64,000 bases of DNA from Alphaproteobacteria bacterium (GCA_028683655.1 JAQUHK010000001.1:11526-75525), one strand, 5' to 3'; shown: positions 1 through 22,690, counted from the stretch's first letter. The notes: generated by a model not told the origin, from the letters alone. Numbers and translations are program-made.

Positions 1-155
1 TTCCTGTTCTGGCGTGGAGACACGGGCGAGAATAACGGCTGGTTTCATGGGCGGCACCTCATAAGCTGAAGAAAGGACCCCTCGATCATGGACGATAAGC
101 AAAAAGCGTCAATAGCCCCCTACGGGATATAGTTCGAAAAAACCAACAAACGGCG

Positions 156-347
156 TTATTTATCAGTGCGATGAGGCCCTGAAAATTTATTTTGCTCCTC
201 GATCTGCATCAAGGTCGTGACAAAGCCGACAAGGTTGTGAAACGCCTCAATGGCCTCGGATTCTGTGAAGGGCTTGTCAGGGCAATAGGCATTCAACTTG
301 GCTTGGAACTTTTTATAATCGACGGGGACGATCATCGGCTCCTCCAT
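156..347 (-). CDS. hypothetical small protein (63 aa)
   Basis: Six-frame ORF only. No recognisable motif. Sits at the left edge of the putative acquired region. Confidence 0.25.
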   Translation of the reverse strand: MEEPMIVPVDYKKFQAKLNAYCPDKPFTESEAIEAFHNLVGFVTTLMQIEEQNKFSGPHRTDK

Positions 348-573
348 AAAAAAAGCCCGTCTGGAAAACCATGACGGGCGGTGGGTGGAAGTAGAAAATT
401 AGTCTTGTTAAACCTTAACCACAGCTGTGTAGTTGGAACTATATTAACAAGCTATATCAGTCAGTTGCCGGCCACCTCCTATCGCTAGAGTCTTCGCACC
501 CAAACAGAAAGTAATGTTTTATTAAGTAAGGCTGGAACAGATGTGGTTTCTCGGATAAAATGCAACAAAGGGG

Positions 574-972
574 TTGTCAGCCTCTGAGGCTACGATTTGG
601 AGTATCCGAATGTTTTCAGACGATACGAACATCACCAAACCACAAGATGAAACAGGGGTAAAATCCGCTGGGGAGGGGTTATGCTTATACCAGCAAAGCG
701 CGACAGCGCAGTTCAACGGCTCTCCCCTTGACGAATTGAAAGACGTTCTTGTTGCTCGCGGAGAACGAAAAATAGAAGAAACTTCTGACCGGCTTATTGC
801 ACAGTTGCACGAAGGCAAGCTGCTCAGCGAAGAAGCAATATCCCGCATTTCCGGAGAAGTTGCCGAAAAGGTTGTTTCAAAGATTTTTCCTGCGGATGTC
901 GAACCCCAAAGGGACTTCGTCAGTTCAGTTAAAAGGCTGGTACGCACCCCAAGCAAGGCCTTGGGGTTTTGA
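574..972 (+). CDS. hypothetical protein (132 aa)
   Basis: ORF with a protein-like composition. The overlapping minus-strand ORF 522..956 is Ser-rich low complexity and was not chosen. Confidence 0.25.
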   Translation: MSASEATIWSIRMFSDDTNITKPQDETGVKSAGEGLCLYQQSATAQFNGSPLDELKDVLVARGERKIEETSDRLIAQLHEGKLLSEEAISRISGEVAEKVVSKIFPADVEPQRDFVSSVKRLVRTPSKALGF

Positions 973-1083
973 TAAAATAAGGTAAACGCACATTTACCAA
1001 TATTTCTTTGCTAATCCTCTATTTTTCTCCCCCTAAATTAACCCGCCGCTAATCATGGCAACGTAAGCTTATCAAATATTCTG

Positions 1084-2091
1084 TTGGGGCATTTGATGGC
1101 TGTTCGTTTAACCGAAGATTTTTTACGCAAGTCTATTTCTGCGTTTACAGAAGGTGAACGCGAAAACGACCCTGTTGCTTTGCAAGCGCTGATTGTATTT
1201 CTGAAGAAGGCAGCACAGAATTCGGAAACATTCGCAAAAGCTCGTAAGAGCCTTCATAGTAACACCGCGATTTTAAGCTTCATTGAGGAAATACGAGAAG
1301 ACACTTTTAAACAAGATAGTGAGTTGCGCAAGAAAACGATTGAACAAGTTCGCCTCCAAATTGCCGAAGAGGTGCGCACAGAAATAGAGCCAAGTCTTCG
1401 CCCAGAGATAGAAAAGAGGATTAGGCAAGAATTTGAGCAGAGTTCAAAGAAAGAACTTAAACAAAGCACCGAGGAAATCATTCGTCTTGTAAAAGAAATG
1501 GACTCGAAATTATCGAGCCAGTCGCAGACGACGCACGGAAAGCTCGAAACGGCAGAAATCAGAGCTGATCGTCTTGGTATGCAGCTCAGCAAAGCCCATG
1601 ACAAACTGGACTCTACAACAGAGCAGTTAAAACAAGCCTCCACTGAAATTGCAAAGCTAAAAACCGAGCTTGTGAAAGCTGGGCAGAAAGGCAAACGGGA
1701 TTTCCGTGTTGGGACTGCCATAGGGATAATTGGGCTTGTTATTGGATTGATCAGTCTTAAACCCATGCTTTCAGATTTGTTAAACAACAACCAAACAGAT
1801 GACGATAAAGCCACATCTGAAAAACAACAAACACAAGGATATCAAAACAAAGAGCCTGATCCAAAGAATGACAATTATTCAGCCCCCACGAACAATAACG
1901 AACAAAGGCAAGGCATGCGTCCAAAGGATCCAAGCGCGGAAGGCCACGAGCCATTGAAGGTCGTTACTTTGTTCGGGAAAGCAAAGCGAGCCGTGGCCCA
2001 CGGTCGGCACAAAGCTTATAAGCAAAACCATCGTCCCCACTGCAAGGGCTCTTGGAAAATAAGAGGACAAAAGCAACATAGGCCGTCCTGA
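1084..2091 (+). CDS. hypothetical coiled-coil protein with one predicted transmembrane helix and a basic C-terminal tail
   Basis: Long heptad-like E/K/Q-rich region. Hydrophobic segment GTAIGIIGLVIGLISL. Lys/Arg/His-rich C-terminus. No family recognised. Confidence 0.4.
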   Translation: MGHLMAVRLTEDFLRKSISAFTEGERENDPVALQALIVFLKKAAQNSETFAKARKSLHSNTAILSFIEEIREDTFKQDSELRKKTIEQVRLQIAEEVRTEIEPSLRPEIEKRIRQEFEQSSKKELKQSTEEIIRLVKEMDSKLSSQSQTTHGKLETAEIRADRLGMQLSKAHDKLDSTTEQLKQASTEIAKLKTELVKAGQKGKRDFRVGTAIGIIGLVIGLISLKPMLSDLLNNNQTDDDKATSEKQQTQGYQNKEPDPKNDNYSAPTNNNEQRQGMRPKDPSAEGHEPLKVVTLFGKAKRAVAHGRHKAYKQNHRPHCKGSWKIRGQKQHRPS

Positions 2092-2277
2092 TGTTGCTTT
2101 TTGCGTCAAACTCGTCAATCTGATCGCCTAAACGTAAAGGTTCGGTCTCAAAACAACCCCGTTGTTTTCTCCGCCCAATCCCCCCCCCCTAAAAGCCACA
2201 CGCGTTGTAAAACCTGCGCTTCTTGCGGCCTAAACCCATAAAGCGGTTGACGCGAATCCCCTACGTCTTTAGTTTTA

Positions 2278-5200
2278 TTGACGAATCATGCGGGTATTCA
2301 TACCCATGCATTTGCTTGCCTGAAGCACACTCCTGTACAGAAGAAGGATCATCTTGTGCCTGTATTCCGTTTGAAGCCCTTTGTCTTTGTTGCCGTTTTG
2401 GTTATTGCGGCAATGTCTCTTCCTCTTACGGTCGCTGCGGGGACATGGAGCGGGCAGAAATCGGCTTATCAGTTGATTTTGGACAAGCTGGGCAAGGCTG
2501 ATCCCAAAAGCATGAATCTGGAGCAGGCACAGGCGTTTATCGAAGACCTTAAATCCCTTGCGCAAACGGAAGCGCTTCTTCCTTCGTCCATCTATGGCAA
2601 CAGCGCGACGGGGGCGAGTGGTCGCGAGGCGAGCGCGTGGGAAAAACGGGCGGCGTCGCAGGCTGTGGCGGTGGGGCAGACTCTGAGTGCGTCCAGCACG
2701 GCGGATGTGGCGGCGACGTTGGCGCAGAGCGGGCAGGCTTTGCTGCCGGACGGATCGGGCGCGGCACAGGGCTGGATGCAGGACAAGCTGCGCGGCGCGT
2801 TGGGGCAGACGGATAACAAGATGGCGGCGGGCGCGATCAATGGCGCGACCAGCGAGCTGGCAAGGGGCACCAGCAATCTGGCCAGCGGTTATGCCACGTC
2901 ACAGATCGGCCTGTCGGACGGCGTTGATGCCAGCAGCAGCCTGAACCAGATGGCGCTGCGCACGGGGCTTGAGGGCGCCAAGGGCGCGGCGGCGGCCAGC
3001 TCGGTCTATGCGTTGAGCCACATGGAGATGGACTATACCCTGTCGGGCAGCGGGATCGACGAGTACTTGGCCTTGATGGTGCAGCCGCTTTGGAACAACA
3101 ACGACCTGCATCACAATATCTTTATACAGGGTTCCTATTCCAACAAGGACGTGACCGACGCGTGGGCGGATACAAGCTCGCGCCGCGATACGGTGAACAC
3201 AGGTCTGGCGTACCGCTGGATCACGCCGGATGAACAGCATATGTTCGGGGTGAACAGCTTCTTTGACCACCAGTGGCCGTATCACCATAACCGCATGTCG
3301 CTGGGTCTGGATTACAAGAACAGCCTGTATGGCGTGGCGTTCAACAAGTACTTCGGCCTGTCCGATTGGCGCGGACGGGTTGACGTGTATGAAGAAAAGG
3401 CTCTGGGTGGCGAAGACCTTGAGTTCTCGGGTCGGTTGAGACAGGCCCCTGAGCTTGAGCTGTTCGTGAAGGGCTATCACTGGGCCCAGGAAGCGACGGC
3501 GGTAGTGAACCCCGACGGGGACGACATCTGGGGCTATGAGCTGGCGGCAGAATACGCGCCGATCAACGCCTTCTCGGTGCGTAGCGCGATCAGCAAGGAT
3601 AACGAGATGGACCGCGCGGCGGGCGAGATCACGCTGCGGCTGAACTATGCGTTTGGGCAAGGCTGGGATGATTTGTGGAGTCGACCCCATTATGACCTGA
3701 GTTCGGTGGTGTCGCGGCGGTTTGAGAAAGTGCGGCGCACGAACGAGATACGGGTGCAGACGCGCCAGAACCTGAGCGTGACGGCGCGGGTGACCTATGC
3801 GCAAGGCGCGAATGTGAGCGTGGGGCAAAGCTTGGCCTTTGGCACGACGATAACGACCAGCAGCGCAGCTGGCAATGCCGCAACGGTTCTGTTCGGCAGC
3901 GGGGCGCGGCTTGATATGGGGCAAAGCACCTCGGTCCGGCTTGAGAAGGACAAGGTGGTCTTGATATCCGGCCTTATGCAGTACACGAGCGGCACAGGCG
4001 GGATCACGACGATTACGGTGCCCAACGGCACGATCAACCTGCTGGGCACGGACGTAGATGTGCGCGTGTCGGGCAGCACGACAACCCTGCGCGTCCGCGA
4101 CGGCGCAGCGAACTTCAAGGATGAAAGCGGTACGACCCGCGTGGATAAGGAAGAGCTGGCGGAAAGCCAGCCCAATGACAGCGCCGCGCCACAAATCCGC
4201 GCATCGAGCACGTCGATTTACGAGACGCATGCGAGCGAAGCGCACGAACAGCTTGACCTTGTGGGCCCAACCCCGACGAGCGCAAAGGCCGCGCCCTATG
4301 CGAAGGCAGATGTGAGCGTGAGCGGCACGATGTCTGTGGGACAGACCCTGACCTTTACGGTGCCGCTGAGCGCAGCGGTGAATGTAAGCGGTTCGCCGCA
4401 ACTGGCCTTTACGCTGGGCGGGCAAGACCGGCTGGCGGACTATGCAAGCGGCAGCGGGACGACGAGCCTGATCTTCACCTATACGGTTGTGAGCGCGGAT
4501 GAAACCCTGTCCACGATCATCGCACAAGAAGTCCAGAAGAACGGCGGCAGCTTAACAGGCAGCAACGGTGCTCCCATGGTGTTGACCGTCTCTGGTACCT
4601 CGACCGGCACCGTGCCCGATCTGGTAGCCCCCACGATTACGGCCCTGACGGCGGTAACGAGCGGCAGCACACCGGCAGGCACCAACGACGTGATCACTTT
4701 TACGCTGGATGCGAGTGAAACGCTGGTCAAGAGCGGCAACCCGACCCTGACCTTAGACATTGGCGGTGTAACCCGCACGGCGACGTTCGCAAGCATCACA
4801 TCGGGCAATGCGATCTTCACCTATACGGTGCAGGCTGGCGACAGCGACACGGACGGGATCACGGTGACGGCGCTCAACATAGCCGCCACTGAGCTGACGG
4901 ACGGATCTGGCAATGATCTGGATACAACGCTGACCCTGCCGCAAAATATGAGCATCACGATCACAACATTGATGGGCCTGTCAACTTGCCCCAGCGGCGA
5001 CCTGTCGGCCCCGACGAACGCGGGCTGTGCCAGATTGTTCGGCAGCGACCCGACGAGCCTGAACGACGTGATGGTGTACGCGGGCGACGTTCCGGGCACA
5101 ACGACGGACTTCTTCGTCCGGCGTTGTGACCTCGGCATGACATGGAGCACCGCGACCTCGTCCTGCACCGGCACGCGCAGCACGATGCAGTGGAAGGACA

Positions 5201-5634
5201 GCCTGACGCAGTCGGCCACGACGGACATAGGAACCGGCACGGCATGGGATAATGACAATGCCGCGAACGGCCCGAACAACACGGCCTTGCTCGTGGCGGA
5301 CGCGACGGGCGTGCACGCTGCGGCAGAAACCTGTAACGCATTGGCTGGCGGCGGCTGGTACTTGCCTGCGATCTCTGAGCTTGACGTGATGTATGCCAAC
5401 CTGATTGGCACGGATGATGTGGATCATCCGCTCCCGACGGTGAACAGCGATCTGGATGATGACCACAGCGGCACGACAGGCCCCCTCAGGGCAAGCTTTA
5501 ACACAAGTGGTTCATACTACTGGTCGTCCTCAGAGGGCAGTACTAATGGCGCGTGGATTCAGCGGTTCAGTGACGGCAATCAGAGCAACTACGGCAAGAC
5601 GACCAATTACTATGTTCGGTGTGCCCGGAGATGA
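2278..5634 (+). CDS. inverse autotransporter (intimin/invasin-family, type Ve) adhesin with Ig-like passenger repeats and C-terminal DUF1566 (C-type-lectin-fold) domain; DGR target protein
   Basis: Signal-peptide-like FVFVAVLVIAAMSLPLTVAAG; the true start could be the GTG at 2356. The region NIFIQGSYSNKD...GLDYKNSLYG...ITLRLNYAFGQGWDDLWSRPHY resembles the intimin/invasin beta-barrel. Repeated Ig-like modules (TFTV..SG.P.L.FTLGG....A.Y.SGSGT..L.FTYTV). The C-terminal WYLPAISEL...YYWSSSE..AW.QRFSDG.......YYVRCAR matches the DUF1566/Lcl C-terminal framework. The last 116 bp are the DGR VR. Confidence 0.8.
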   Translation: MTNHAGIHTHAFACLKHTPVQKKDHLVPVFRLKPFVFVAVLVIAAMSLPLTVAAGTWSGQKSAYQLILDKLGKADPKSMNLEQAQAFIEDLKSLAQTEALLPSSIYGNSATGASGREASAWEKRAASQAVAVGQTLSASSTADVAATLAQSGQALLPDGSGAAQGWMQDKLRGALGQTDNKMAAGAINGATSELARGTSNLASGYATSQIGLSDGVDASSSLNQMALRTGLEGAKGAAAASSVYALSHMEMDYTLSGSGIDEYLALMVQPLWNNNDLHHNIFIQGSYSNKDVTDAWADTSSRRDTVNTGLAYRWITPDEQHMFGVNSFFDHQWPYHHNRMSLGLDYKNSLYGVAFNKYFGLSDWRGRVDVYEEKALGGEDLEFSGRLRQAPELELFVKGYHWAQEATAVVNPDGDDIWGYELAAEYAPINAFSVRSAISKDNEMDRAAGEITLRLNYAFGQGWDDLWSRPHYDLSSVVSRRFEKVRRTNEIRVQTRQNLSVTARVTYAQGANVSVGQSLAFGTTITTSSAAGNAATVLFGSGARLDMGQSTSVRLEKDKVVLISGLMQYTSGTGGITTITVPNGTINLLGTDVDVRVSGSTTTLRVRDGAANFKDESGTTRVDKEELAESQPNDSAAPQIRASSTSIYETHASEAHEQLDLVGPTPTSAKAAPYAKADVSVSGTMSVGQTLTFTVPLSAAVNVSGSPQLAFTLGGQDRLADYASGSGTTSLIFTYTVVSADETLSTIIAQEVQKNGGSLTGSNGAPMVLTVSGTSTGTVPDLVAPTITALTAVTSGSTPAGTNDVITFTLDASETLVKSGNPTLTLDIGGVTRTATFASITSGNAIFTYTVQAGDSDTDGITVTALNIAATELTDGSGNDLDTTLTLPQNMSITITTLMGLSTCPSGDLSAPTNAGCARLFGSDPTSLNDVMVYAGDVPGTTTDFFVRRCDLGMTWSTATSSCTGTRSTMQWKDSLTQSATTDIGTGTAWDNDNAANGPNNTALLVADATGVHAAAETCNALAGGGWYLPAISELDVMYANLIGTDDVDHPLPTVNSDLDDDHSGTTGPLRASFNTSGSYYWSSSEGSTNGAWIQRFSDGNQSNYGKTTNYYVRCARR

Positions 5635-5636
5635 AT
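5516..5636 (+). repeat. DGR variable repeat (VR) including the putative IMH at its 3' end
   Basis: Aligns to 6443..6563 without gaps. 11 of 14 mismatches sit where TR has A (VR has G/T/C), all inside TR AAC/AAT codons. The last two mismatches (cgg vs cgt, aga vs agt) are non-A and lie at the GC-rich 3' end, as expected for IMH versus IMH*. Confidence 0.8.
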
Positions 5637-5746
5637 TATTTAATCCTTTAATCATTTTCTTCTGTTCCCGCGAAGCGGGGCGCGGAAAATTTTTAAGGGA
5701 TCATGATGTGTGACATGCGTTTGGGCGGTTAGAAAGTGGTGCGCTA

Positions 5747-6109
5747 ATGGCACAGTACAAACATTTACCGATATATAAGGCCGCTTATGACCTTTTGCTT
5801 CGGTTGATGATGGCGACAAAGGATTTTCCGCGTGATTATAAATACACATTGGGCGAGAAAATGCGGGATGAGGTGTTGGAGCTTATCCTATTTATCTATC
5901 GCGCCAACAGCGCGGCGGATCGCACGGCGCATATCACAGAAATTCTTGAACGCATCCAGCTTGTGGAGGTCATGCTGCGCATGGCCCACGATCTGCGCGT
6001 TCTGCCCCGTGGCAAATATGCGGGGCTTGTAGAAATGACAGACAGCTTGGCGCGTCAAGCGCAAGGCTGGCTTAAAAGTTCGGGGAAGAGGAAGCCAGAA
6101 CAAGTTTGA
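5747..6109 (+). CDS. avd: DGR accessory variability determinant Avd (four-helix-bundle protein)
   Basis: 120-aa basic helical protein between target and TR. Size, position and sequence character (KDFPRDYKYTLGEKMRDEVLEL...) fit the Avd/four-helix-bundle family of DGRs. Confidence 0.7.
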   Translation: MAQYKHLPIYKAAYDLLLRLMMATKDFPRDYKYTLGEKMRDEVLELILFIYRANSAADRTAHITEILERIQLVEVMLRMAHDLRVLPRGKYAGLVEMTDSLARQAQGWLKSSGKRKPEQV

Positions 6110-6442
6110 GTCAAGGCTCGGCTTGGAGAGCGCATTCATCTCGGATAGCGGCGGTGTGCGGAAAAGGAGGTTAACCAGACAAGCTTTACAAGAAACGAGT
6201 GCCCAGCCAAAAACGTCTCGATTTCCTATCCACAGACCTGACGACCTTCGCGCCCAGTATCTTGAAACTGTTTTGTATCACGTCCTTCAAAGCCCACCAA
6301 AGCAGAGGCGAAGGACCTGCCTACGCCAAGGCTTCCGCCGTCGTTCTTCGAACTATGGCGGACAAGTCGGCAAGGCAGGGTCGCTGAAGTCGCCTGTGGT
6401 GAGTCTTCGCCATGGGCGTTCATAAGATCGCTATCAAACGTA

Positions 6443-6563
6443 ACTACTGGTCGTCCTCAGAGAACAATACTAATAACGCGTGGATTCAGCGGTTCAGTGA
6501 CGGCAATCAGAACAACAACAATAAGACGAACAATAACTATGTTCGTTGTGCCCGGAGTTGAAT
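6443..6563 (+). repeat. DGR template repeat (TR)
   Basis: Intergenic copy of the target 3' end. Translated in the VR frame it is Asn-rich (nine AAY codons), typical of a TR. It ends about 40 bp before the RT start codon. Confidence 0.8.
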
Positions 6564-6602
6564 CCTCTTTCCCGATTCAATCTTGTTTTCATAAGGCCTG
6601 TT

Positions 6603-7733
6603 ATGCCCTTTACCCCCGCTGAGCTGACGCTTGAAGTGCTGTTTGATGCCTATTTTGACTGCAGACGCCATAAGCGCAATACGCTGCATCAGTTGGCCTT
6701 TGAAGCCGATCTGGAACGCAACCTTATGTCCCTATGGTATGATTTGCGCGACGGAAATTACCATATCGGGCGCAGTATCGCGTTTGTCGTGACCTATCCC
6801 AAAGCGCGCGAGGTCTGGGCGGCCAGCTTTCGGGATAGGATCGTGCATCACCTGATTTACAATGCGATCAAGGGGCGTTTCTATGCGCGGTTTATCAGGG
6901 ATACCTATGCCTGCATTCCCACGCGCGGGGCGCATGATGGTTGTCGCCGTGTGTCCGGCTTCGCGCGGTCTGTGACTCGCAACTGGACGCGGCCCGCTTT
7001 TGTGTTGAAGGCTGATGTTGCGAGTTTTTTCACCAGCATCAATCACGGCATTCTTCTGGATATTTTACGCCCCCTCGTTCCCGAAGTGTGGTTGTGGGAT
7101 TTGATTTGCCAAGTCGTTCATCACAATCCCCGCGAAGATGCCATTTTTCGCTCAACGAACAGGCTATTCAATCTGGTGCCACTGCATAAAAGCTTGCTTC
7201 ATGCACCTCATGACAGAGGGCTTCCCATCGGCAACCTGACAAGCCAGTTTTTCGCCAATGTCTATATGAACGAGTTGGATCAATTCGCCAAGCACGCGCT
7301 TCGCGCCAAATACTATGGCCGCTATGTCGATGACATTGTGATGTTCGACGAAAGCGCAGAGGTGTTGAACGAACATTATGCGCGGATGGAGACGTTTCTT
7401 TTGGACTATCTCGATTTGCGGCTTCATCCCGATAAAAAGAAACTCCACCCTGCCGCGCAGGGCATTGACTTTGTTGGCTTCGTCATCAAACCCAACCGCA
7501 CCTACCTGCGCAATATGTCGGTTGCACGTTGCAAGCAAAAGATTGCGGCATGGGAGCATAAGGGCTGTCCGTTGGAGCCGGAAGGCCTTGCCAAACTAGG
7601 CGAGTCCGTCACCAGCTATCTGGGTATGTTGCGCCGTGTGAACGGCTACCGCGCCCGAAAATCCCTATGTGGGCATTTCAACAACCTGTTTATCTATCCC
7701 GATAACGAATTTACGAAACTGATTGTGCCTTAA
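6603..7733 (+). CDS. DGR reverse transcriptase
   Basis: RT motifs including RYVDDIVMF (YxDD) and LPIGNLTSQFFANVYMNELD (DGR-typical I/LGxxxSQ motif). The six-frame ORF begins at 6546 inside TR. The first ATG after TR (6603, MPFTPAEL...) is taken as the start. Confidence 0.85.
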   Translation: MPFTPAELTLEVLFDAYFDCRRHKRNTLHQLAFEADLERNLMSLWYDLRDGNYHIGRSIAFVVTYPKAREVWAASFRDRIVHHLIYNAIKGRFYARFIRDTYACIPTRGAHDGCRRVSGFARSVTRNWTRPAFVLKADVASFFTSINHGILLDILRPLVPEVWLWDLICQVVHHNPREDAIFRSTNRLFNLVPLHKSLLHAPHDRGLPIGNLTSQFFANVYMNELDQFAKHALRAKYYGRYVDDIVMFDESAEVLNEHYARMETFLLDYLDLRLHPDKKKLHPAAQGIDFVGFVIKPNRTYLRNMSVARCKQKIAAWEHKGCPLEPEGLAKLGESVTSYLGMLRRVNGYRARKSLCGHFNNLFIYPDNEFTKLIVP

Positions 7734-9004
7734 GCCACCAACTCAAACATCGGCCTACCGTAATCGTCGGCCTTGGCGGTGGTTTGCAGTGGCCGTGCCG
7801 GTGGGATGGGGAAGCCAGCTGCGCCTTGGGGCATGGCGGCGAAGTCCATAGAAGCCGGAAGCATGGGGTGCGGGCCAAGCTTGCGGGTTGTGAGGCCTAG
7901 CTCTTTCAGAGCGGCTGTTATCTCAGGCTCGTTCAGAACGTGGATGCGAATGATCGGTTGTTTGCTGCCGATGATTGGGTAATCATCCGCTGTGCCGCGC
8001 TTTGGCACAAACAGCTCATCCGCGCTTGAGCCATAGGCGGCGCGAAGGATTTCATCGCGGTGGGCCGTGATCGGGATGATGGGGCTGCGTTTTGATTTTG
8101 TTGTGGGTGCGGTTGGCTGTCCCCATCTTCTGTCCTCGATCTCGTCGGATCCCACGCGGATCAGGGAAACCAGCACGTCCTTCAGCTCGCTTCCTTTTGG
8201 CAGATGGCCGTTGCTTGTGATCTGCACCCGCGTCACAGTTTGATCCGTGAAGGTTGAATAGCCTTCCGTAAAGCTGGCCGCGATCTGTTGCGTACCACTG
8301 CCGTTTTCCCAGTGGTTTACAAAGATGCGCCTTGCGGGTGTGCCGTTTGCGGTGAGAATCTCCCGCGTTTCAACCTCCATCGGCCAGCGGGGCTTGAGGT
8401 GATAAAGCCCATCCAGTTCAAAAACCGCGTCTTGTGTTGCTATGCCGAGGCTTGCACCAAAGTGATCGAGCAAAGCAATCATATTGGTGCTGTGCGCCGA
8501 GAATTCGCCGATGCGGCCTCGTGGTGTTGCTCCAAACAGCGGACTGCCTTCGGTCAGCATTTTGCGCATTCGCTCTTGCTCGAAGAGTAAGCCAAGCTGG
8601 GTGCCGCTGTAACAAGGCCTTCCGTTACGATCTTTCAGGAGGGCTTTGATCTGTTCGGGTAACAGGCATGTGTCCTCGCCATAGGTCGCGGCGTAGTGGA
8701 CAATCTGGTTTCCTTCACGGACACCCATAACCGTGGGGAACTCAATCGCTACGCCTATTGGCCTTGGGGTGCAGTTCTCCCACGCGGCCAATAGGAACTG
8801 GGCTTGAATCTTTCCCGTGCGTACCGCATGGATGATGCGGCTGGCCCGCGCCGGATCAAAATATGCGCCGTGGGTTTTGGCTTCATGCCGAATCGCGTCT
8901 TCAAGGGTTTTTCCCAGCATGGCACAATGCACCGGATCATGCGGGTTCATCGTGACAACAGCCAGTTGAAAGCCGCCCAGTCTTTGAAGAAGCGGCTGTT
9001 CCAT
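7730..9004 (-). CDS. hypothetical protein (424 aa), translationally coupled to upstream XRE-family regulator
   Basis: Long ORF of good coding quality. Its start codon overlaps the stop of the 9004..9654 gene. No HipA, Fic, HExxH or nucleotidyltransferase signature could be confirmed by eye. Confidence 0.5.
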   Translation of the reverse strand: MEQPLLQRLGGFQLAVVTMNPHDPVHCAMLGKTLEDAIRHEAKTHGAYFDPARASRIIHAVRTGKIQAQFLLAAWENCTPRPIGVAIEFPTVMGVREGNQIVHYAATYGEDTCLLPEQIKALLKDRNGRPCYSGTQLGLLFEQERMRKMLTEGSPLFGATPRGRIGEFSAHSTNMIALLDHFGASLGIATQDAVFELDGLYHLKPRWPMEVETREILTANGTPARRIFVNHWENGSGTQQIAASFTEGYSTFTDQTVTRVQITSNGHLPKGSELKDVLVSLIRVGSDEIEDRRWGQPTAPTTKSKRSPIIPITAHRDEILRAAYGSSADELFVPKRGTADDYPIIGSKQPIIRIHVLNEPEITAALKELGLTTRKLGPHPMLPASMDFAAMPQGAAGFPIPPARPLQTTAKADDYGRPMFELVA

Positions 9005-9654
9005 TATTTACCCCGTCTTTTGGCGGGTGTGTCTGCCTTCGACCAGAAAAGCTCAAACTCTTGAACATAACGCTCGGTCAAAAACTTTGAATGGATCGTG
9101 ATGAACTCTTTTTTGTGGCTCGACTCGTTGAGCGACATGACGAGATAATCATCATAAATGTAATAGGGCGCCATGACCGCATAGGCCTTATCGAGAGTGC
9201 GATACTCACAGTAAGCAAGGGGTAAGTTAACCTCACCCTTAATGGCCAAGACTTGTGCATCAAGCCCATCAATCTCGCCCATGCGCTGTGTGTGTTCGCT
9301 GACAAAATTATCGGCATAAGGCAAATAGCGTTCGTCACCAAAGTTAAACTGGCGAATACGTCCACCGTCTTTGAGTGTTTCATAAATGTGATCGAGAAGT
9401 TGGCGATAGCCCGCTTTGCCGGAATAGATACGCATATTCTGCTTGCGTATCTTCACGCCTTCATCTTCCAGAAACTCTACGCCGTGCTTGTCAAAAGCAG
9501 CAAGGATGCGGGTTAGTGTTTTTTCTTGGGGCTGCACAAGATCGGATTCAATCTTGCTAATCGTCACACGCGTGGTGCCTGCCTTTTTGGCAAGGTCTTC
9601 GGCCTTCCACTCTAACAGGCCTCGCGCTGCGCGTATTTGACGTCCTGTAATCAT
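9004..9654 (-). CDS. XRE-family helix-turn-helix transcriptional regulator with C-terminal domain of unknown function
   Basis: N-terminal HTH (QIRAARGLLEWKAEDLAKKAGTTRVTISKIES). About 150 aa of unassigned C-terminal sequence. Confidence 0.6.
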   Translation of the reverse strand: MITGRQIRAARGLLEWKAEDLAKKAGTTRVTISKIESDLVQPQEKTLTRILAAFDKHGVEFLEDEGVKIRKQNMRIYSGKAGYRQLLDHIYETLKDGGRIRQFNFGDERYLPYADNFVSEHTQRMGEIDGLDAQVLAIKGEVNLPLAYCEYRTLDKAYAVMAPYYIYDDYLVMSLNESSHKKEFITIHSKFLTERYVQEFELFWSKADTPAKRRGK

Positions 9655-9722
9655 GAACTATCCATACCATAAACAGGTTGGTTAATTCCATGCGAAAGTG
9701 ATGTTTTTAACCTTTCAGCCCC

Positions 9723-10640
9723 TCAACTGGGGGCTGGGACGGGCAAAACAGGCTGTTTGGCTTTCATAAACTCGACCGCCCGCGTGGCATGGGCGGCGGC
9801 GGTGAAGATCAGTTTCTTGTCGCTTTTAAGGGCTTTGAGCCAATGGTCGATATAGGCGGCATGATCCTCGCGGATTTCTGGCGTGATGCCTAAATCCGCG
9901 CAAAGGAAGGCCGCGCCAATCTCGGCAACAAGCTCTTCCTTGGCATAGCCTTCATCACCCCACACGACACGACCAAAGTCGCGGTCAAGGCGGCTCTTGT
10001 GTTTTGTCCAGTGCGTTGTCTCATGGGCAAGCGTGGCGTAATAACTTTCTGCGTCTTTGAAAGCATCGAAGGACGGCATCTGGATATGATCGCTGCCTTC
10101 TGCGTAATAGGCCCTGCCGCCGCCATGCCGGATGACGACTCCCGTATTCATCATAAAATCATCGACGGATACAAGGCGTTCGATAAGGGACGTTTCAGGC
10201 AAAGCCTCTGGGCGAATAAGGAACCGCTCCGGCAAGCCTTCAATCTGTTCGACATTGAACACATTGTACCCGCGCATAAAGGGAATATGTCGCTCGACAT
10301 CCGCGCCCGTCATGGAGTCGGCCTCAAGCTTTGTAATCTTGTCGGCATAAACGATAAAGGAAGATTTCTCACCCTTGCGGACATGCGCCCCATAGACTTC
10401 AGCTTGTTTGAAGGTCATCCAAGTCGGGTTCTGATAACCGCCGCGTAAGGCAGCATCCCATAGGAGTAAAACATTCACGCCGTTATAGGCCTCGCCATTA
10501 TGGCGCAAGGGGCGCATGATACGGCTTGCGGTACTGTCGCCGCTCCAAGGTTTTTGCCAAGGGCGCACCCCTTGCTCAAGATCAGCAATAATCTTTTGCG
10601 TCACACGATCATAGACGTTGAGTTTGGTCGGTTCTGTCAT
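9723..10640 (-). CDS. ardC: ArdC-like antirestriction protein (N-terminal ssDNA-binding DUF1738 domain + C-terminal zincin-like metallopeptidase domain)
   Basis: N-terminus NVYDRVTQKIIADLEQGVRPWQKPW...NGVNVLLLW matches the ArdC N-domain. C-terminal HExxH (LAHETTHWTKH). Confidence 0.8.
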   Translation of the reverse strand: MTEPTKLNVYDRVTQKIIADLEQGVRPWQKPWSGDSTASRIMRPLRHNGEAYNGVNVLLLWDAALRGGYQNPTWMTFKQAEVYGAHVRKGEKSSFIVYADKITKLEADSMTGADVERHIPFMRGYNVFNVEQIEGLPERFLIRPEALPETSLIERLVSVDDFMMNTGVVIRHGGGRAYYAEGSDHIQMPSFDAFKDAESYYATLAHETTHWTKHKSRLDRDFGRVVWGDEGYAKEELVAEIGAAFLCADLGITPEIREDHAAYIDHWLKALKSDKKLIFTAAAHATRAVEFMKAKQPVLPVPAPS

Positions 10641-10738
10641 GCGCTGTCTCCTTTGCTTATGTTAAAAACCCACGCACTCGGACAAGCGCATGGCATTACG
10701 GGCTTTGGGCCTGTAATTTCTGGTGATGATTTGTGCTG

Positions 10739-12127
10739 TTACCGTTGCGGCGGTGTGAACGGGACAAACCCAATGGGTGCGAGTTCCGGCCACAGGGTAA
10801 AAAACCGCGCAGGGAACTTGTGACCCCAGACTTTCCAATCGAGGATCGCCGCTTCCGGCCAGCCTTTCTTGGTGGGTGCTGGTCTTGTTGGGGTTGGTTC
10901 TTGCCTCTTGGGTGATATATGTACGGCTTTAATGGAAACGGGACGCAGCGGTTTGTTTGTCTCGGGGGTGTGCGCAGAAGCAAGATTGAATCCAGCCCCT
11001 CCGCCACATGATCTACGCTTGCCCCCATGCTTCTTGGAATTCATACAGCGCATGAGTTCCGAGACAGGGCGCGGACGTAGCGCGGCAAGGTCTGGGAACT
11101 TCTTGTTCAACCCCTTCGCCACGTCCTTGCCAAGCAGTCGATCCAGATTATGCCGCTCACCGTTGCCGTCGATAATGGCAAAACCCTTTAACCCGCGTCC
11201 CAGCGCATACCCCTTCTTGTTGAGGCTTGCGAAGAACGCCGCGCCGGACTTGCTGGCGCGATAGGCCCGTTGCACGCCCTCGCGCACCTGTTGCAGGTCT
11301 GTCGGTTCTTTCTTCTCACGCGGTGCATTGGCTTTAAGCGGCTTACACGCCTTTACCAGTTCGGCATGATCCGGATAATTTTCGCGCTCAATGCCCACGA
11401 GCTTCTGACGCAAGTCAGCCAGCTTCTTTCCCTCAATCTGTCGCATGAGGCCGTGGGTGTCCCCGAACCTATCCACCAGCACCAGTTGACCGCGCTGCCC
11501 CTTCGTTAAAACAAAGCCAGCTTTATCAAGCGCGGCGATAAACTCTTGCGTTGTCGCGTTAGCATGAAAGATGGCCGTAACATCCTTGCGCATCTTGCGC
11601 GGATCAATGCCTGTGCGCTTGCCGCGTTGCATCTCCCATGTCCGTGCGGCCTTACCTTTGATATCTGTTGTCGAGAGGCCAAAGATTTCTTCAAGGCCAC
11701 GAGAGATTTTCCATTCCTTGGTTTTTGACCATTTAAGCTCATGCGTCTTGCCCGTAGTCGGGTTAATAATGTTGAACACAAGGTGAAAATGCTGCTTGCC
11801 CTTCTTCCAATGTTCGACAAGCGCGCAATCATGCCCCACAAGGCCCATATGTTCGGCATAGTACGCCACCATAAATTTTTGTTGAGCCGCGTTTAGGGTT
11901 TCGCCATAGGCAGGGGCAAGGATGGCGTGATAAAGATTGCGCTTCTGCCCCTTGCCATAACCTATAGCTTCCATCTGGCGCAGGGCTTTGGTCAGGTTGC
12001 CACTCGTCAGCCCGTCAAAGGCAAAGCCGCCGAGTTCCTTAACGGAAACAGACTCGTTCTCTTCGGTTTTCTGTAAATGATAGGCGAGGTCTTTCGCACC
12101 GCCGCGTCTGCGCCCCTGAATCCACAT
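10739..12127 (-). CDS. MobA/MobP-family relaxase (mobilization nuclease domain protein)
   Basis: N-terminal relaxase domain (IQGRRRGGAKDLAYHLQK..., histidine motif HFHLVFNIINP). Long basic/Pro-rich C-terminus. Confidence 0.8.
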   Translation of the reverse strand: MWIQGRRRGGAKDLAYHLQKTEENESVSVKELGGFAFDGLTSGNLTKALRQMEAIGYGKGQKRNLYHAILAPAYGETLNAAQQKFMVAYYAEHMGLVGHDCALVEHWKKGKQHFHLVFNIINPTTGKTHELKWSKTKEWKISRGLEEIFGLSTTDIKGKAARTWEMQRGKRTGIDPRKMRKDVTAIFHANATTQEFIAALDKAGFVLTKGQRGQLVLVDRFGDTHGLMRQIEGKKLADLRQKLVGIERENYPDHAELVKACKPLKANAPREKKEPTDLQQVREGVQRAYRASKSGAAFFASLNKKGYALGRGLKGFAIIDGNGERHNLDRLLGKDVAKGLNKKFPDLAALRPRPVSELMRCMNSKKHGGKRRSCGGGAGFNLASAHTPETNKPLRPVSIKAVHISPKRQEPTPTRPAPTKKGWPEAAILDWKVWGHKFPARFFTLWPELAPIGFVPFTPPQR

Positions 12128-12726
12128 CAGCGGTTGCGCTTCGTGTGTTCGTCAATGGCAAGATGAATAATATCGCCAATGTGTTTGTCTTCATGTAAGG
12201 CTAAAGATAGTTTGGCGGCTTGACGCTCGATGGCATAGAGAAAAGACGAAAGGCTCCTGTCGTCCGACCGTCCCATATTAACGTTCTTAACGGCCTGATT
12301 AAACCCATGCCCCAGCTTGGTCAGCTCGTCTTGAAAGTGGTAAAGATTGATCCCGTGAGGTAGCCTTCCGCCATGAAGAGCGTTGGTCAAAACTGACGCT
12401 GCATGGATCAATTGGCTGTGGGTGGCGGCTAAACCCTCCACGTCTGGCAACGCGGACTTGAGCTGCTTACAATTGCCGCCGATCTTGTTCACGATGCCCA
12501 GCAAGTCATGCAGCTCCGTAAAACAGGCCACGGGGCGGCGTTTAAGTGCCTTCAAACAACTTTGTGGCAAGATACGGACGCGCACCAACACCATGAGGAT
12601 AAAGCTTGAAAGCTGCAAACCCTCGCGTTCTGCTGCTTGAACAACAAGGGCTTTTTGTTCGGCATTAACACGCACGACGATCATGCTGTTGCGAGCGCGT
12701 TTTACAGGCATCTTGATTTCTGTCAT
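12127..12726 (-). CDS. mobC: MobC-family mobilization (relaxosome accessory) protein
   Basis: RHH-like segment SMIVVRVNAEQKALVVQAAEREGLQLSSFI. Immediately upstream of, and overlapping, the relaxase gene. Start chosen at the ATG (MTEIKM...) preceded by an AGAGGTG RBS. Confidence 0.65.
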   Translation of the reverse strand: MTEIKMPVKRARNSMIVVRVNAEQKALVVQAAEREGLQLSSFILMVLVRVRILPQSCLKALKRRPVACFTELHDLLGIVNKIGGNCKQLKSALPDVEGLAATHSQLIHAASVLTNALHGGRLPHGINLYHFQDELTKLGHGFNQAVKNVNMGRSDDRSLSSFLYAIERQAAKLSLALHEDKHIGDIIHLAIDEHTKRNR

Positions 12727-12797
12727 AAACACCTCTTGTGTTCTTATTAGGGGAATGAAGCGGGTGCATGGGCGGCAGCCCTGTAAGGCTTCTTTTC

Positions 12798-12838
12798 CAA
12801 AACGTATGACGTTTTGCGAAAGGGCGGGTTCGTATGAC
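12798..12838. promoter_or_regulatory. candidate oriT: perfect inverted repeat CAAAACGT-ATG-ACGTTTTG followed by a repeated CGTATGAC motif, upstream of mobC
   Basis: Seen directly in the sequence. The position relative to mobC/relaxase is typical for oriT. A near-identical palindrome recurs at 15283..15300. Confidence 0.35.
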
Positions 12839-12888
12839 AACGTAATACAACCCACTCCTTGCGAAGCCTGCGACGAAGACTAAAACCC

Positions 12889-13149
12889 TTACTCGTCTGA
12901 CCAGTCACAGCGGCACAGGGGGATCAGGAAAGTGCTGCCGCCCTGTGCCCGTGGCACCTGAATAAAAGTCGTCGTTTCATCATGAAGACCGCATGTTGTG
13001 CGAAACATAAACTCGGTCAGGATCACGGCCATCTGGTCCGGCCATTCGTGGGCAATGGCTTCATAAACAGCGTCAGGCTCCATCTCCATGTAACGCTCGA
13101 TGGCTTGCGTTAAGGCAAGATCAATCAGCTCAGACATATTGGTTCTCAT
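12889..13149 (-). CDS. hypothetical protein (86 aa)
   Basis: ORF only. Confidence 0.3.
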   Translation of the reverse strand: MRTNMSELIDLALTQAIERYMEMEPDAVYEAIAHEWPDQMAVILTEFMFRTTCGLHDETTTFIQVPRAQGGSTFLIPLCRCDWSDE

Positions 13150-13429
13150 GCGAGGCCTACCTTTCTACGATGTGAGGGAAGAGGAAACGCGGGGGTGCAA
13201 TCGGCGTACGTTTCATGCGCCGTTGAAGCTTTTAAAGGCTATAGAAATGGAATGCGGAGAAACAAAAAACCGCCCGTCAAAAAGAGGGGCGGCTGGGTAG
13301 CTTTGCGGCATTTAGACGTATTGCTACGATAACGAATTGATACCAGAAAACATGACCTGCGTCAACGGAAAAGTTATGCTTAATGCAAGATAGTTACGCT
13401 TCGTGTAACGGCGTGTAATATACTTAACA

Positions 13430-13915
13430 TTAACCAAGCTTCCATAACTTAGCCAATGCCTCAAGGGCGCGGTGCAGGGTGCGAAGCTTGACTGTACCGC
13501 CCGCCCATTCATCATGGCCACAAACAGAAATGATAAGAGCCTTCTGCGTGGGCGTTAAAACGCCATAGGCTTCACGCAAGACCCGCTCACTGTGTACAGG
13601 CGTAATGAAGGCCATTTCTGGATCGCCATGAGCTCCTGCGCCTGTGTCTTCTGCGTGAATGCGCAGAACAGCCCGCAAATACGCCGCCTTGAACTTGATC
13701 CCTACACGGTGTTCATCTTGGGTGATCTTGCCACGCAAAAGATAGGCATCCAGCGGCGTATCGCCAATGACCTTATAGCGGCACATAAGGACTTTGTTAT
13801 CGGTATCGCGATCAATGACCTCAGTCACGATCCGGCTTTGGTTGCGCCGCTCCGGTGTCGGGCCTTCGCCCACACGAACTGGAATGCTCTTTCTCTTATG
13901 CAGCCGCGTCGCCAT
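13430..13915 (-). CDS. hypothetical protein (161 aa) of mobile-element backbone
   Basis: ORF of good coding quality. No motif recognised. The overlapping plus-strand ORF 13592..14053 was judged a shadow. Confidence 0.4.
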   Translation of the reverse strand: MATRLHKRKSIPVRVGEGPTPERRNQSRIVTEVIDRDTDNKVLMCRYKVIGDTPLDAYLLRGKITQDEHRVGIKFKAAYLRAVLRIHAEDTGAGAHGDPEMAFITPVHSERVLREAYGVLTPTQKALIISVCGHDEWAGGTVKLRTLHRALEALAKLWKLG

Positions 13916-14147
13916 CGTGCGTTCCTTGGGCTTATGGTTATCTCTTTAATAAATATGCACCACACCAATCAAAACAACTATGCAACAAGTCCTTCTTCCC
14001 AACCCATAGCAAGATTGTTCCGGTTTGTCAACGGTAATTATCATTGCGTATAGTCTAAATATACATGGCATACTTATCAAGAGGCCGTTGTTTGGGAACG
14101 ACAATCAAGGTTTTATGATTAACAGCTCCTACCAAACCCGAAAAAAC

Positions 14148-14195
14148 TTGACTTTTGTTATGCGGGCGTTACATAATGCGTAATCATATGTAACG
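14148..14195 (+). promoter_or_regulatory. sigma70-like promoter (TTGACT-N16-TACATAAT) overlapped by inverted repeat CGTTACAT-N13-ATGTAACG; putative autoregulated operator of the downstream XRE gene
   Basis: Hexamers and palindrome read directly from the sequence. Confidence 0.35.
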
Positions 14196-22688: not shown

Positions 22689-22690
22689 GG

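What the first reader, a model, noticed from the sequence alone, without database searches (positions are those of the whole stretch)
2278..5634. DGR target is a type Ve inverse autotransporter (intimin/invasin-like) ending in a DUF1566/CLec-fold variable domain
The N-terminal third contains an intimin/invasin-type beta-barrel segment (GLDYKNSLYG...ITLRLNYAFGQGWDDLWSRPHY). The passenger has at least two Ig-like repeats. The C-terminus matches the DUF1566 framework (WYLPAISEL...YYWSSS..AW.QRFSDG...YYVRCAR), a C-type-lectin-fold scaffold known as a DGR variable-protein domain. The diversified residues (G/S/N/Y/T at the AAY positions) sit in the last 35 aa, so they would be displayed at the distal tip of a surface-anchored adhesin. 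The bacterium would be diversifying its own outer-membrane adhesin, rather than a phage tail fibre or a secreted lipoprotein. I am not aware of a described DGR that targets an inverse autotransporter.
Basis: partly seen in the sequence, partly recalled or inferred. Interest (0 to 1): 0.8.

Follow-up and report, generated by a model that had tools for sequence, protein, structure and literature searches.

The report
Self-diversifying inverse-autotransporter adhesin (DGR target)
An uncultured alphaproteobacterium carries, on a mobile island, an intimin/invasin-type outer-membrane adhesin whose lectin-like tip is rewritten by a diversity-generating retroelement; this way of displaying a hypervariable protein was not found in the literature I could search.

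Summary

The last 39 codons form the VR of a complete, canonical DGR: avd 5747-6109, TR 6442-6563, RT 6603-7733. Twelve of 15 TR/VR mismatches fall on TR adenines. The TR has 13 AAY codons.

Relatives with the same architecture occur on plasmids and islands, mostly of Alphaproteobacteria, some with a DGR and some without. In one relative, alleles identical over 1047 residues differ at 10-14 of the last 45, so this class is being diversified in nature.

The retroelement and the variable domain are of known kinds; the closest annotated plasmid system found is a Legionella pneumophila DGR. The type Ve anchor is the new element. No searched paper links DGRs to inverse autotransporters. Activity and surface display at this locus are inferred, not shown.

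The parts
2180..2189 (+). C10 homopolymer upstream of the target gene. Tentative slipped-strand (phase-variation) tract.
   Evidence: It is the only C/G run of 8 or more in the 64 kb window. C9-C11 tracts lie upstream of the DGR-linked homologues, with 1-nt length differences between near-identical upstream sequences: L004 C10 against L028 C11, and L023 C10 against L025 C9. DGR-less homologue loci have no such tract. Its position relative to a promoter is unresolved.
2356..5634 (+). DGR target gene: a 1092-aa inverse autotransporter adhesin. The maximal ORF starts at TTG 2278.
   Evidence: ORF. Start and ribosome-binding site, N-terminal alignment with homologues. Pfam IAT_beta plus Lcl_C. AlphaFold model.
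2356..2439 (+). Sec-type signal peptide (aa 1-28). No lipobox cysteine.
   Evidence: Read from the sequence: a basic n-region, a hydrophobic core and TVAA|G. It is conserved in position in homologues. No signal-peptide predictor was available.
2443..3021 (+). Helical, Ala/Gly/Ser-rich region of about 190 aa, presumed periplasmic. No LysM domain.
   Evidence: Helices at 37-221 with low pLDDT. No Pfam hit.
3019..3660 (+). 12-stranded inverse-autotransporter beta-barrel (aa 222-435).
   Evidence: Pfam IAT_beta 1.4e-28. Profile against PDB: invasin 1.2e-17, intimin 5.4e-15. Twelve strands in the model. Foldseek 4E1T 3.6e-16 with TM 0.80.
3658..3783 (+). Linker expected to run back through the barrel pore (RRFEKVRRTNEIRVQTRQ motif).
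   Evidence: It is among the most conserved stretches of the family. It aligns with the post-barrel segment of the invasin crystal construct, RYNLVDRNNNI. The pore location is inferred.
3781..4209 (+). FecR-like beta domain, the first passenger domain.
   Evidence: Pfam FecR 27.2 bits (cut-off 24) when scanned alone. Foldseek matches PupR CCSSD 6OVK and BDI_1681 4M0H.
4273..4905 (+). Two Ig-like beta-sandwich repeats (aa 640-756 and 756-850).
   Evidence: All-beta in the model. The repeats are homologous to each other, BLASTP 1e-7. Pfam gives only non-significant Big_9 and DUF7035 hits.
4903..5631 (+). Cys-rich C-terminal module ending in the C-type-lectin-fold Lcl_C/DUF1566 domain.
5515..5636 (+). 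Variable region (VR), the last 39 codons plus the stop. The 3' part (GTGCCCGGAGATGAAT) is IMH-like.
   Evidence: Repeat with the TR. Twelve of 15 mismatches fall at TR adenines, P = 4e-4. Codon table. The same AGT(TR)/AGA(VR) difference recurs in four related elements.
5667..5679 (+). GC hairpin CCCGC-GAA-GCGGG downstream of the VR. It is a candidate DGR target-recognition hairpin, or alternatively a terminator.
   Evidence: Present in all DGR-linked relatives with compensatory stem changes (CCCTGC/GCAGGG, CTGCGC/GCGCAG, GTCACCGC/GCGGTGAC) and absent from DGR-less loci. The fold z-score alone is not significant. An overlapping terminator-like pairing was found.
5747..6109 (+). avd accessory gene (120 aa).
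   Evidence: Pfam bAvd 5.3e-15, 56.3 bits against 40. NCBIfam DivGenRetAVD 2e-14, below the equivalog cut-off.
6442..6563 (+). Template repeat (TR). It holds 42 adenines and 13 in-frame AAY codons.
6603..7733 (+). DGR reverse transcriptase (376 aa from ATG 6603).
   Evidence: Pfam RVT_1. IGNLTSQ and YVDD motifs are in the translation. The best PLSDB match is a Legionella pneumophila plasmid RT that lies in a DUF1566-protein / four-helix-bundle / RT gene row, 41% identity.
9004..12855 (-). Mobile-element context: XRE regulator, ArdC anti-restriction protein, MobA/VirD2-type relaxase and a NikA-like protein.
   Evidence: Pfam. Window 1-15516 has no counterpart in a 98%-identical sister strain, whose synteny starts at 15517.

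Best explanation
The locus is a canonical diversity-generating retroelement (target - avd - TR - RT) whose target is a type Ve (inverse autotransporter) adhesin.

Proposed working, for the protein:
- It is exported by Sec through its signal peptide.
- Its 12-stranded barrel is inserted in the outer membrane.
- The C-terminal passenger is threaded out through the barrel. The passenger is a FecR-like domain, two Ig-like domains and a disulfide-bonded C-type-lectin-fold Lcl_C tip, so the tip sits distal on the cell surface.

Proposed working, for the retroelement:
- The avd-TR-RT module transcribes the TR.
- The RT, with Avd, makes cDNA in which TR adenines are copied unfaithfully.
- The cDNA replaces the VR, guided by the IMH-like 3' end and perhaps by the downstream GC hairpin.
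- Thirteen AAY codons alone allow about 2e15 tip variants without creating stop codons.

The cassette is cargo of a mobilisable island. The most likely role is a ligand-binding adhesin of rapidly changeable specificity.

Shown here: the architecture, the folds, the adenine-specific VR/TR pattern, the completeness of the element, and VR-restricted allelic variation in a close relative. Inferred: surface exposure, current activity at this locus, the ligand and the biological role.

For: DGR: VR/TR repeat. Twelve of 15 mismatches fall at TR adenines, P = 4e-4. All changed codons are AAY. Repertoire estimate. bAvd and RVT_1 hits, with IGNLTSQ and YVDD in the RT. There is a single VR in the window. 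The nearest annotated plasmid RT is in a Legionella DGR with the same gene order, and its DUF1566 target aligns to the tip.

Family evidence: the same target-avd-TR-RT cassette with adenine-specific VR/TR differences is found in L004, L027, L023/L029 and L103. Across 21 homologues the entropy is 2.85 bits at AAY sites, 0.28 at A-free VR codons and 0.92 over the rest of the protein. In the P0012 cluster, four 1092-aa alleles (P0012, P0057, P0068, P0069) are identical over 1047 residues and differ at 10-14 of the last 45.

Extracytoplasmic location: signal peptide and six conserved cysteines in the tip module.

Mobile context: and related loci.
Against: - There are no reads or allele series for this VR, so activity here is unproven. 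Exact look-ups for the window's Avd and RNR proteins found nothing.
- Three TR/VR differences are not at adenines: T>C at 5595, T>G at 5619 and T>A at 5631.
- Avd scores below the NCBIfam equivalog cut-off. NCBIfam has no DGR-specific RT model, and the best RT hit is the group II intron model.
- Most homologues with enough flanking sequence lack a DGR or carry a decayed one. Diversification is therefore dispensable for the adhesin, and DGR loss is frequent.
- The full-length model has pTM 0.41 and a low-confidence N-terminal region.
- The sequence comes from a metagenome-assembled genome.
Confidence: 0.8

Rival explanations
1. Fossil element. The DGR once diversified this adhesin but is now inactive, and the VR is a frozen allele.
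For: DGR decay is common in this family. The RT is truncated to its last 136 aa in L023/L029, where four of five full-length cluster-3 alleles share one VR and a fifth differs at one residue. Only an Avd remnant is left in L005 and L030. No DGR is found within 8-10 kb in at least seven other loci. There are three non-adenine TR/VR differences here.
Against: In the window, avd, TR and RT are all full length with intact catalytic motifs. The IMH-like end and the hairpin are conserved. Twelve of 15 mismatches are still adenine-specific. A relative with the same cassette shows ongoing VR-only variation.
Confidence: 0.13
2. The diversified adhesin serves the mobile element rather than the cell's habitat adhesion. 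It could stabilise mating pairs or widen the range of recipients, as shufflon-varied PilV does for plasmid R64.
For: The cassette or its homologues sit next to relaxase, coupling-protein, ArdC or replication genes in the window, L001, L003, L103 and L111.
Against: Some homologues are in ordinary chromosomal neighbourhoods (L002, L113). In the closest tested analogue, the DGR-diversified pilus tip adhesins on Bacteroides ICEs, deleting the adhesin did not change transfer efficiency (bioRxiv 10.1101/2024.11.15.621889). No mating-pair-formation genes lie in the part of the island covered by the window.
Confidence: 0.05
3. The target is of phage origin (a receptor-binding protein), or it is a periplasmic or secreted protein that only resembles an inverse autotransporter.
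Against: No phage genes flank it. It has a signal peptide and a complete barrel with TM 0.80 to invasin and intimin. The barrel-then-passenger order is that of type Ve secretion. PLSDB matches to the barrel region are annotated inverse autotransporters or Ig-like domain proteins.
Confidence: 0.02

Closest known systems
Legionella pneumophila DGR and its target LdtA (on an ICE or plasmid)
   Same: The gene order is the same: target, four-helix-bundle Avd, TR, RT. Its RT is the best match in PLSDB, at 41% identity. The target ends in the same Lcl_C/DUF1566 CLec-type variable domain, 34% identical over 125 aa and sharing WYLPA..E, YWSS.E, AW.Q.F..G and VRC.R. It is carried on a conjugative element, and the variable domain is displayed on the outer face of the outer membrane (as summarised in PMC5758913).
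   Different: LdtA is a lipoprotein anchored in the outer leaflet. Here the anchor and export device is a covalently linked 12-stranded inverse-autotransporter barrel, with a FecR-like and Ig-like stalk about 400 aa long.
Bacteroides DGR-diversified type V pilus tip adhesins (4EPS/BovFim1C-like), often on ICEs
   Different: There the tip is a separate pilin polymerised on a type V pilus in Bacteroidota. Here it is the last domain of a single-chain type Ve autotransporter in an alphaproteobacterial MAG.
Intimin and invasin (prototype type Ve inverse autotransporters)
   Different: This protein has no LysM, Big_1 or Intimin_C match. Its first passenger domain is FecR-like, its tip belongs to the Lcl_C family, and barrel identity is only about 20%. 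Intimin tip variation arises by ordinary allelic divergence, not by a retroelement.
Bordetella phage BPP-1 Mtd, Treponema denticola TvpA and Thermus TaqVP (structurally characterised DGR variable proteins)
   Different: Mtd is a phage tail-fibre tip, and the TvpA and TaqVP domains are of the FGE-like CLec type. None is fused to an outer-membrane barrel.
Legionella Lcl C-terminal domain (PDB 8Q4E), the namesake of Pfam Lcl_C
   Different: Lcl is a collagen-like adhesin and, to my knowledge, is not DGR-diversified.

Membership tests
Diversity-generating retroelement (DGR) | TR/VR repeat pair whose differences fall almost only at TR adenines. | tested here: met
   The repeat is 122 nt, at 5515-5636 and 6442-6563. 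Twelve of 15 mismatches are at TR adenines, P = 4e-4, and all are in AAY codons.
Diversity-generating retroelement (DGR) | Reverse transcriptase with the DGR-type motif-4 signature [ILV]GxxxSQ and a YxDD catalytic box, encoded next to the TR. | tested here: met
   RVT_1 at 3.8e-14. IGNLTSQ and YVDD are in the translation. The TR ends 40 nt before the RT start. The nearest annotated plasmid RT is in a Legionella DGR. No DGR-specific RT profile was available, and NCBIfam's best hit is the group II intron RT, below its cut-off.
Diversity-generating retroelement (DGR) | Accessory protein Avd (or HRDC). | tested here: met
   Pfam bAvd at 56.3 bits against a cut-off of 40. NCBIfam DivGenRetAVD at 53.8 bits, below the equivalog cut-off of 80.
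Diversity-generating retroelement (DGR) | IMH at the 3' end of the VR (differing from IMH* in the TR) and a downstream hairpin/cruciform. | tested here: inconclusive
   The GC-rich 3' end differs at two positions between VR and TR. The AGT(TR)/AGA(VR) difference recurs in four related elements. A hairpin with compensatory changes is present in the DGR-linked loci only. It lies about 30 nt from the VR and could instead be a terminator.
Diversity-generating retroelement (DGR) | Demonstrated mutagenic retrohoming (VR alleles changing at adenine-templated sites). | not testable with these tools
   No reads or alleles are available for this locus. Indirect evidence comes from alleles of relative P0012, with 0/1047 body differences against 10-14/45 VR differences.
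Inverse autotransporter (type Ve secretion, IAT) | 12-stranded IAT_beta barrel located N-terminal to the passenger. | tested here: met
   Pfam at 100.7 bits against a cut-off of 22.3. PDB profile hits to invasin and intimin. Twelve strands at aa 224-432. Foldseek TM 0.80.
Inverse autotransporter (type Ve secretion, IAT) | N-terminal Sec signal peptide. | tested here: met
   Judged by inspection and by alignment with homologue N-termini. No dedicated predictor was run.
Inverse autotransporter (type Ve secretion, IAT) | Linker that passes through the barrel pore, followed by an extracellular passenger of repeated beta-sandwich domains with a distal binding domain. | tested here: inconclusive
   The linker motif is conserved and aligns with the invasin post-barrel segment. 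The domain order is barrel, FecR-like, two Ig-like, CLec. Topology is inferred from homology only.
Inverse autotransporter (type Ve secretion, IAT) | Surface exposure of the C-terminal passenger. | not testable with these tools
   This needs protease accessibility or immunolabelling.
Intimin/invasin proper | Big_1 (D00-D2) repeats plus an Intimin_C / invasin D5 tip, and LysM in intimin. | tested here: not met
   No LysM, Big_1, Big_2 or Intimin_C hit in Pfam. NCBIfam inverse-autotransporter equivalog models score 23-37 bits against cut-offs of 508-1125. It is an IAT-family member, not an intimin or invasin.
Lcl_C/DUF1566 class of DGR variable domains (category 'd'/CLec2 of Wu et al. 2018, PMC5758913) | VR overlapping a DUF1566-type C-type-lectin-fold domain at the C-terminus. 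| tested here: met
   [not shown]

The most novel reading that the evidence does not exclude
The cassette is a mobile 'contingency locus' that combines two layers of programmed variation on one outer-membrane adhesin. One layer is on/off or level switching by a slippage-prone poly-C tract upstream. The other is DGR rewriting of the lectin tip. On this reading it benefits the mobile element or a cell-attacking lifestyle, for example recipient or prey-cell recognition in Micavibrio-like alphaproteobacteria, rather than serving generic substrate adhesion.
Probability: 0.12. Interest if true: 0.75.

Novelty: new variant of a known kind. Interest (0 to 1): 0.5.

Why it matters
DGR variable proteins of bacteria are mostly uncharacterised. 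The display routes I found described are a lipoprotein (Legionella LdtA) and type V pilus tips (Bacteroides). This locus adds a third route, type Ve autotransport, in which one polypeptide carries its own export pore, stalk and hypervariable tip.

Intimin-type barrels are already used in the laboratory to display antibody-fragment libraries on E. coli (PMC3781032). This natural system therefore couples a targeted mutator to a display scaffold in three genes and about 5.5 kb. That makes it an attractive, portable model for asking what ligands cellular DGR adhesins evolve to bind. It could also serve as a chassis for continuous in vivo diversification with surface display.

The family also offers natural comparisons: cassettes with intact, decayed or absent DGRs, and the same chassis with other tips. 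These could show when hypervariation is selected.

Tried and rejected
- Population alleles of this VR. Exact-sequence look-ups of the window's Avd and of its RNR (P0078) found no record. ArdC returned only a 1.3 kb contig. The sister strain found through P0079 lacks the island. Within-population variation of this locus therefore could not be tested.
- Second targets. BLAST of the TR and tblastn of the tip against the whole window found no further VR.
- Known RNA families. The Rfam gathering search of the window gave only a tRNA-Ala at 62822 and nothing in the avd-TR spacer.
- Hairpin significance. The fold of 5625-5705 has z = -1.05, which is not significant alone. Only the comparative evidence supports the hairpin.
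- Split barrel in Legionella. The 'porin family protein' upstream of the Legionella DUF1566 target is a weak OMP_b-brl match, not IAT_beta. The idea of a two-gene version of the same design is not supported.
- Cultured-plasmid examples. No PLSDB record covers 80% or more of the target. The hits are barrel-only (enterobacterial IATs, 22-27% identity) or Ig-like-only (Azospirillum).
- Promoter placement of the poly-C tract. Consensus scans were inconclusive.
- Variable residues on the model surface.
- Trans-acting DGRs in genomes whose homologue lacks an adjacent DGR.
Full report
**Observation**

The ORF at 2278..5634 (+) is real. The likely start is GTG 2356. An AAGGA box lies 8 nt upstream. 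The product then begins MPVFRLKPFVFVAVLVIAAMSLPLTVAA|G, a Sec-type signal peptide that lines up with the N-termini of homologues. Residue numbers below use this 1092-aa form.

Pfam gives IAT_beta at 1.4e-28 (100.7 bits, cut-off 22.3) and Lcl_C (formerly DUF1566) at 4.1e-11 (43.6 bits, cut-off 34.9). Downstream lie bAvd (5747-6109) and an RVT_1 reverse transcriptase. The RT carries IGNLTSQ and YVDD and probably starts at ATG 6603.

A 122-nt repeat links the 3' end of the ORF (VR, 5515-5636) to a copy just upstream of the RT (TR, 6442-6563). Of 15 mismatches, 12 are at TR adenines (binomial P = 4e-4). Every changed codon is AAC or AAT in the TR.

The TR has 13 in-frame AAY codons. These alone allow about 1.9e15 peptides. 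Counting all adenines gives about 1e23. Only AAG at codon 1081 can mutate to a stop. No second VR exists in the window.

**Anatomy of the target**

The full-length AlphaFold model was built on 42 sequences and has mean pLDDT 78. It shows, in order:
- a helical, low-confidence region at aa 30-221
- twelve beta-strands at 224-432
- a short linker
- a beta domain at 477-615
- one helix at 620-634
- two beta-sandwiches at 654-752 and 760-841
- a C-terminal module at 892-1092

Foldseek against the PDB ranks the invasin and intimin beta-domains first: 4E1T at 3.6e-16, and 5G26 and 4E1S at about 1e-13, each with TM 0.80 on the target. A family profile finds the same two proteins by sequence, at 1.2e-17 and 5.4e-15. 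That alignment runs through the post-barrel segment, RRFEKVRRTNEI against RYNLVDRNNNI.

The domain after the linker is FecR-like. Scanned alone it scores 27.2 bits against a cut-off of 24. Foldseek matches the PupR cell-surface-signalling domain and BDI_1681. The two following repeats are homologous to each other (1e-7) but match no Pfam Ig family.

- dozens of C-type lectins below these

Six cysteines in this module are invariant or nearly invariant across homologues, as expected for an oxidised, extracytoplasmic domain. The variable codons (1054, 1061-1062, 1064-1065, 1075, 1077-1080, 1083-1085) fall in the last four strands and their connecting turns.

**Relatives**

About 40 clusters of proteins at 44-83% identity share the barrel and stalk, and most also share the Lcl_C tip. 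Named sources are mainly Alphaproteobacteria: Amorphus, Rhodospirillales MAGs and a Micavibrio-labelled MAG.

The same target-avd-TR-RT cassette, with adenine-specific VR/TR differences, occurs in L004, L027, L023/L029 and L103/L104. L103 is a small plasmid with TrfA, ParA and ArdC.

The VR 3' end always differs from the TR by the same T/A change, AGT in the TR against AGA in the VR. All DGR-linked loci keep a GC hairpin with a GAA/GGA-type loop about 30 nt past the stop codon. Its stems differ in sequence but keep their pairing. DGR-less loci lack it.

Other homologues have a decayed DGR. The RT is cut to 136 aa in L023/L029, and only Avd remnants remain in L005 and L030. Others have none within 8-10 kb: both tandem Amorphus orientalis copies, and L002, L003, L026, L032/L113, L034, L111 and L112.

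Across 21 homologues, column entropy is 2.85 bits at the positions templated by AAY codons. It is 0.28 at adenine-free VR codons and 0.92 over the rest of the protein (Mann-Whitney P = 6e-10). So even the DGR-less copies carry the mark of past diversification.

The strongest evidence comes from the 90% cluster of P0012. Four 1092-aa alleles from different contigs (P0012, P0057, P0068, P0069) are identical over the first 1047 residues but differ at 10-14 of the last 45. This is direct evidence that this class of inverse autotransporter is being diversified in nature.

**Context**

The window comes from an NCBI MAG labelled Alphaproteobacteria bacterium. Its RNR alpha subunit is 100% identical to a protein on a 79 kb contig.

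Window positions 15517-28740 are 98% identical to a sister strain. That strain continues leftwards with unrelated genes, so window 1-15516 is strain-specific. This region holds the DGR cassette plus an XRE regulator, ArdC, a MobA/VirD2-type relaxase and a NikA-like protein. It is a mobilisable island whose far end lies outside the window. The rest of the window is ordinary chromosome: RNR, tad pilus, MotAB, flagellin, SecA and sugar-nucleotide genes.

Homologues often sit beside relaxases, coupling proteins, integrases or plasmid replication genes. Some are in housekeeping neighbourhoods.

**Mechanism**

Shown here:
- the gene order
- the folds
- the adenine-specific pattern
- the completeness of the element
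- VR-restricted variation in a relative

Inferred from established knowledge of type Ve secretion (intimin and invasin: PMC3467248, PMC4943183) and of DGRs (PMC5758913):
- Sec export
- insertion of the barrel
- hairpin secretion of the C-terminal passenger through the barrel, so that the lectin tip ends up distal
- transcription of avd-TR-RT
- Avd-assisted, adenine-mutagenic cDNA synthesis
- replacement of the VR, guided by the IMH-like end

The ligand is unknown. The most economical reading is an adhesin with rapidly changeable specificity, carried as cargo by a mobile element.

**Comparison with what is known**

The retroelement is closest, among annotated plasmids, to a Legionella pneumophila DGR. 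The RT is 41% identical and the gene order is the same. The tip is 34% identical to its DUF1566 target over 125 aa. It falls in the DUF1566 target class of Wu et al..

The nearest functional analogues are the Legionella surface lipoprotein LdtA and the DGR-diversified type V pilus tips on Bacteroides ICEs. In the latter the adhesin was dispensable for conjugation.

The anchor is what differs. Full-text searches found no paper combining DGRs with inverse autotransporters. Papers that combine DGRs with 'autotransporter' or 'invasin' concern phage receptors or Ig-domain nomenclature. The DGR surveys I read do not mention such targets. Roux et al. already state that most cellular targets look like membrane-anchored binding proteins. 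So this fits the general expectation and fills in a specific, undescribed architecture. Supplementary tables of those surveys were not searchable.

Against the family definitions, the protein is an IAT member but not an intimin or invasin. It has no LysM, Big_1 or Intimin_C match, and NCBIfam equivalog models score far below their cut-offs.

**Verdict**

The finding is correct and its interpretation is supported. I rate it a new variant of a known kind, with interest 0.5.

The main open points are activity and surface exposure at this locus, the ligand, and the role of a poly-C tract found upstream. That tract is C10 at 2180-2189, the only such run in the window. C9-C11 tracts occur upstream of the DGR-linked relatives, with 1-nt length differences between near-identical sequences. 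It hints at phase-variable expression on top of DGR diversification.

Noticed in passing
window 2180-2189; L103 9940-9948; L004 271-280; L028 1690-1700; L023 117-126; L025 1395-1403; L027 142-150: There is a homopolymeric C tract (G9 in L027) of 9-11 nt upstream of the adhesin gene, and in each locus it is the only C/G run of 8 or more. Near-identical upstream sequences differ by one C: L004 C10 against L028 C11, and L023/L024/L036 C10 against L025 C9. DGR-less homologue loci have no such tract. This suggests slipped-strand phase variation of expression. Placement relative to a promoter is unresolved.
   Followed up: partly
L004 4554-5657 (-), L027 4243-5343 (-), against window 6603-7733 (+) and L103 14039-15148 (+): In two related cassettes the RT gene is inverted relative to target, avd and TR, and is convergent with the TR. 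In the window and in L103 it is co-directional. The RTs are about 58-62% identical, so an inversion happened within this DGR lineage.
   Followed up: partly
L023 4117-4524, L029 3070-3477; L005 13445-13576; L030 2151-2303: These are decayed DGRs next to intact adhesin genes. The RT is truncated to its last 136 aa, or only the first 44-50 aa of Avd match, while TR, IMH and hairpin can persist. Four of five full-length alleles of the L023-type cluster share one VR and a fifth differs at one residue, consistent with freezing.
   Followed up: partly
window 3781-4209: The first passenger domain after the barrel is FecR/PupR-like, a fold known from periplasmic anti-sigma signalling domains. It takes the place of the Big_1 domain seen in intimin and invasin, and it is one of the most conserved parts of the family (GTDVDVRV...LRVRDGAA).
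   Followed up: partly
proteins P0021, P0028, P0031, P0034, P0038, P0039: The same barrel-plus-stalk chassis carries other C-terminal domains: Big_5, PF21722, PF09206, DUF285/PF03382 and LVIVD/PF08309. Conversely, the same Cys-rich Lcl_C module occurs in a 302-aa secreted protein without a barrel and with no RT or Avd among its called neighbours (P0198, L110). The tip and the anchor are exchanged as modules.
   Followed up: partly
cluster members P0051, P0053, P0058-P0060, P0062, P0070: Several alleles of DGR-linked homologues have frameshifted or truncated C-termini starting inside the VR. These could be assembly artefacts in a hypervariable stretch, or real knock-outs produced by mutagenic homing.
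   Followed up: no
window 1-15516 against 15517-28740; L106: The window is 98% identical to a sister strain only from 15517 rightwards. The left 15.5 kb (DGR cassette, XRE, ArdC, relaxase, NikA-like and small ORFs) is strain-specific. No integrase or tRNA marks the junction inside the window, and the other island end is off the window.
   Followed up: partly
[not shown]
   Followed up: no
L114 1000-1749 (Legionella pneumophila plasmid NZ_CP016875): A small outer-membrane beta-barrel gene ('porin family protein', weak OMP_b-brl match) lies 10 nt upstream of the DUF1566 DGR target on this Legionella plasmid. It is not IAT-like. Whether it helps display the variable lipoprotein is unknown.
   Followed up: partly
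window 7730-9004 (-) and 1084-2091 (+): Two ORFs flank the cassette. One is a 424-aa ORF with no family match in Pfam or NCBIfam whose end overlaps the RT stop codon by 4 nt. The other is a 335-aa ORF with a sub-threshold match to the SH3-and-anchor family TIGR04211 and no Pfam match. Neither has a counterpart in the related DGR loci.
   Followed up: partly
loci L011-L022 and L038-L102: Distant relatives of the barrel (28-33% identity) are widespread in marine contigs. The named genome records are labelled OM43/Methylophilaceae, SAR86 and Porticoccus. No RT, Avd or Lcl_C tip related to the window's was detected in these loci.
   Followed up: no
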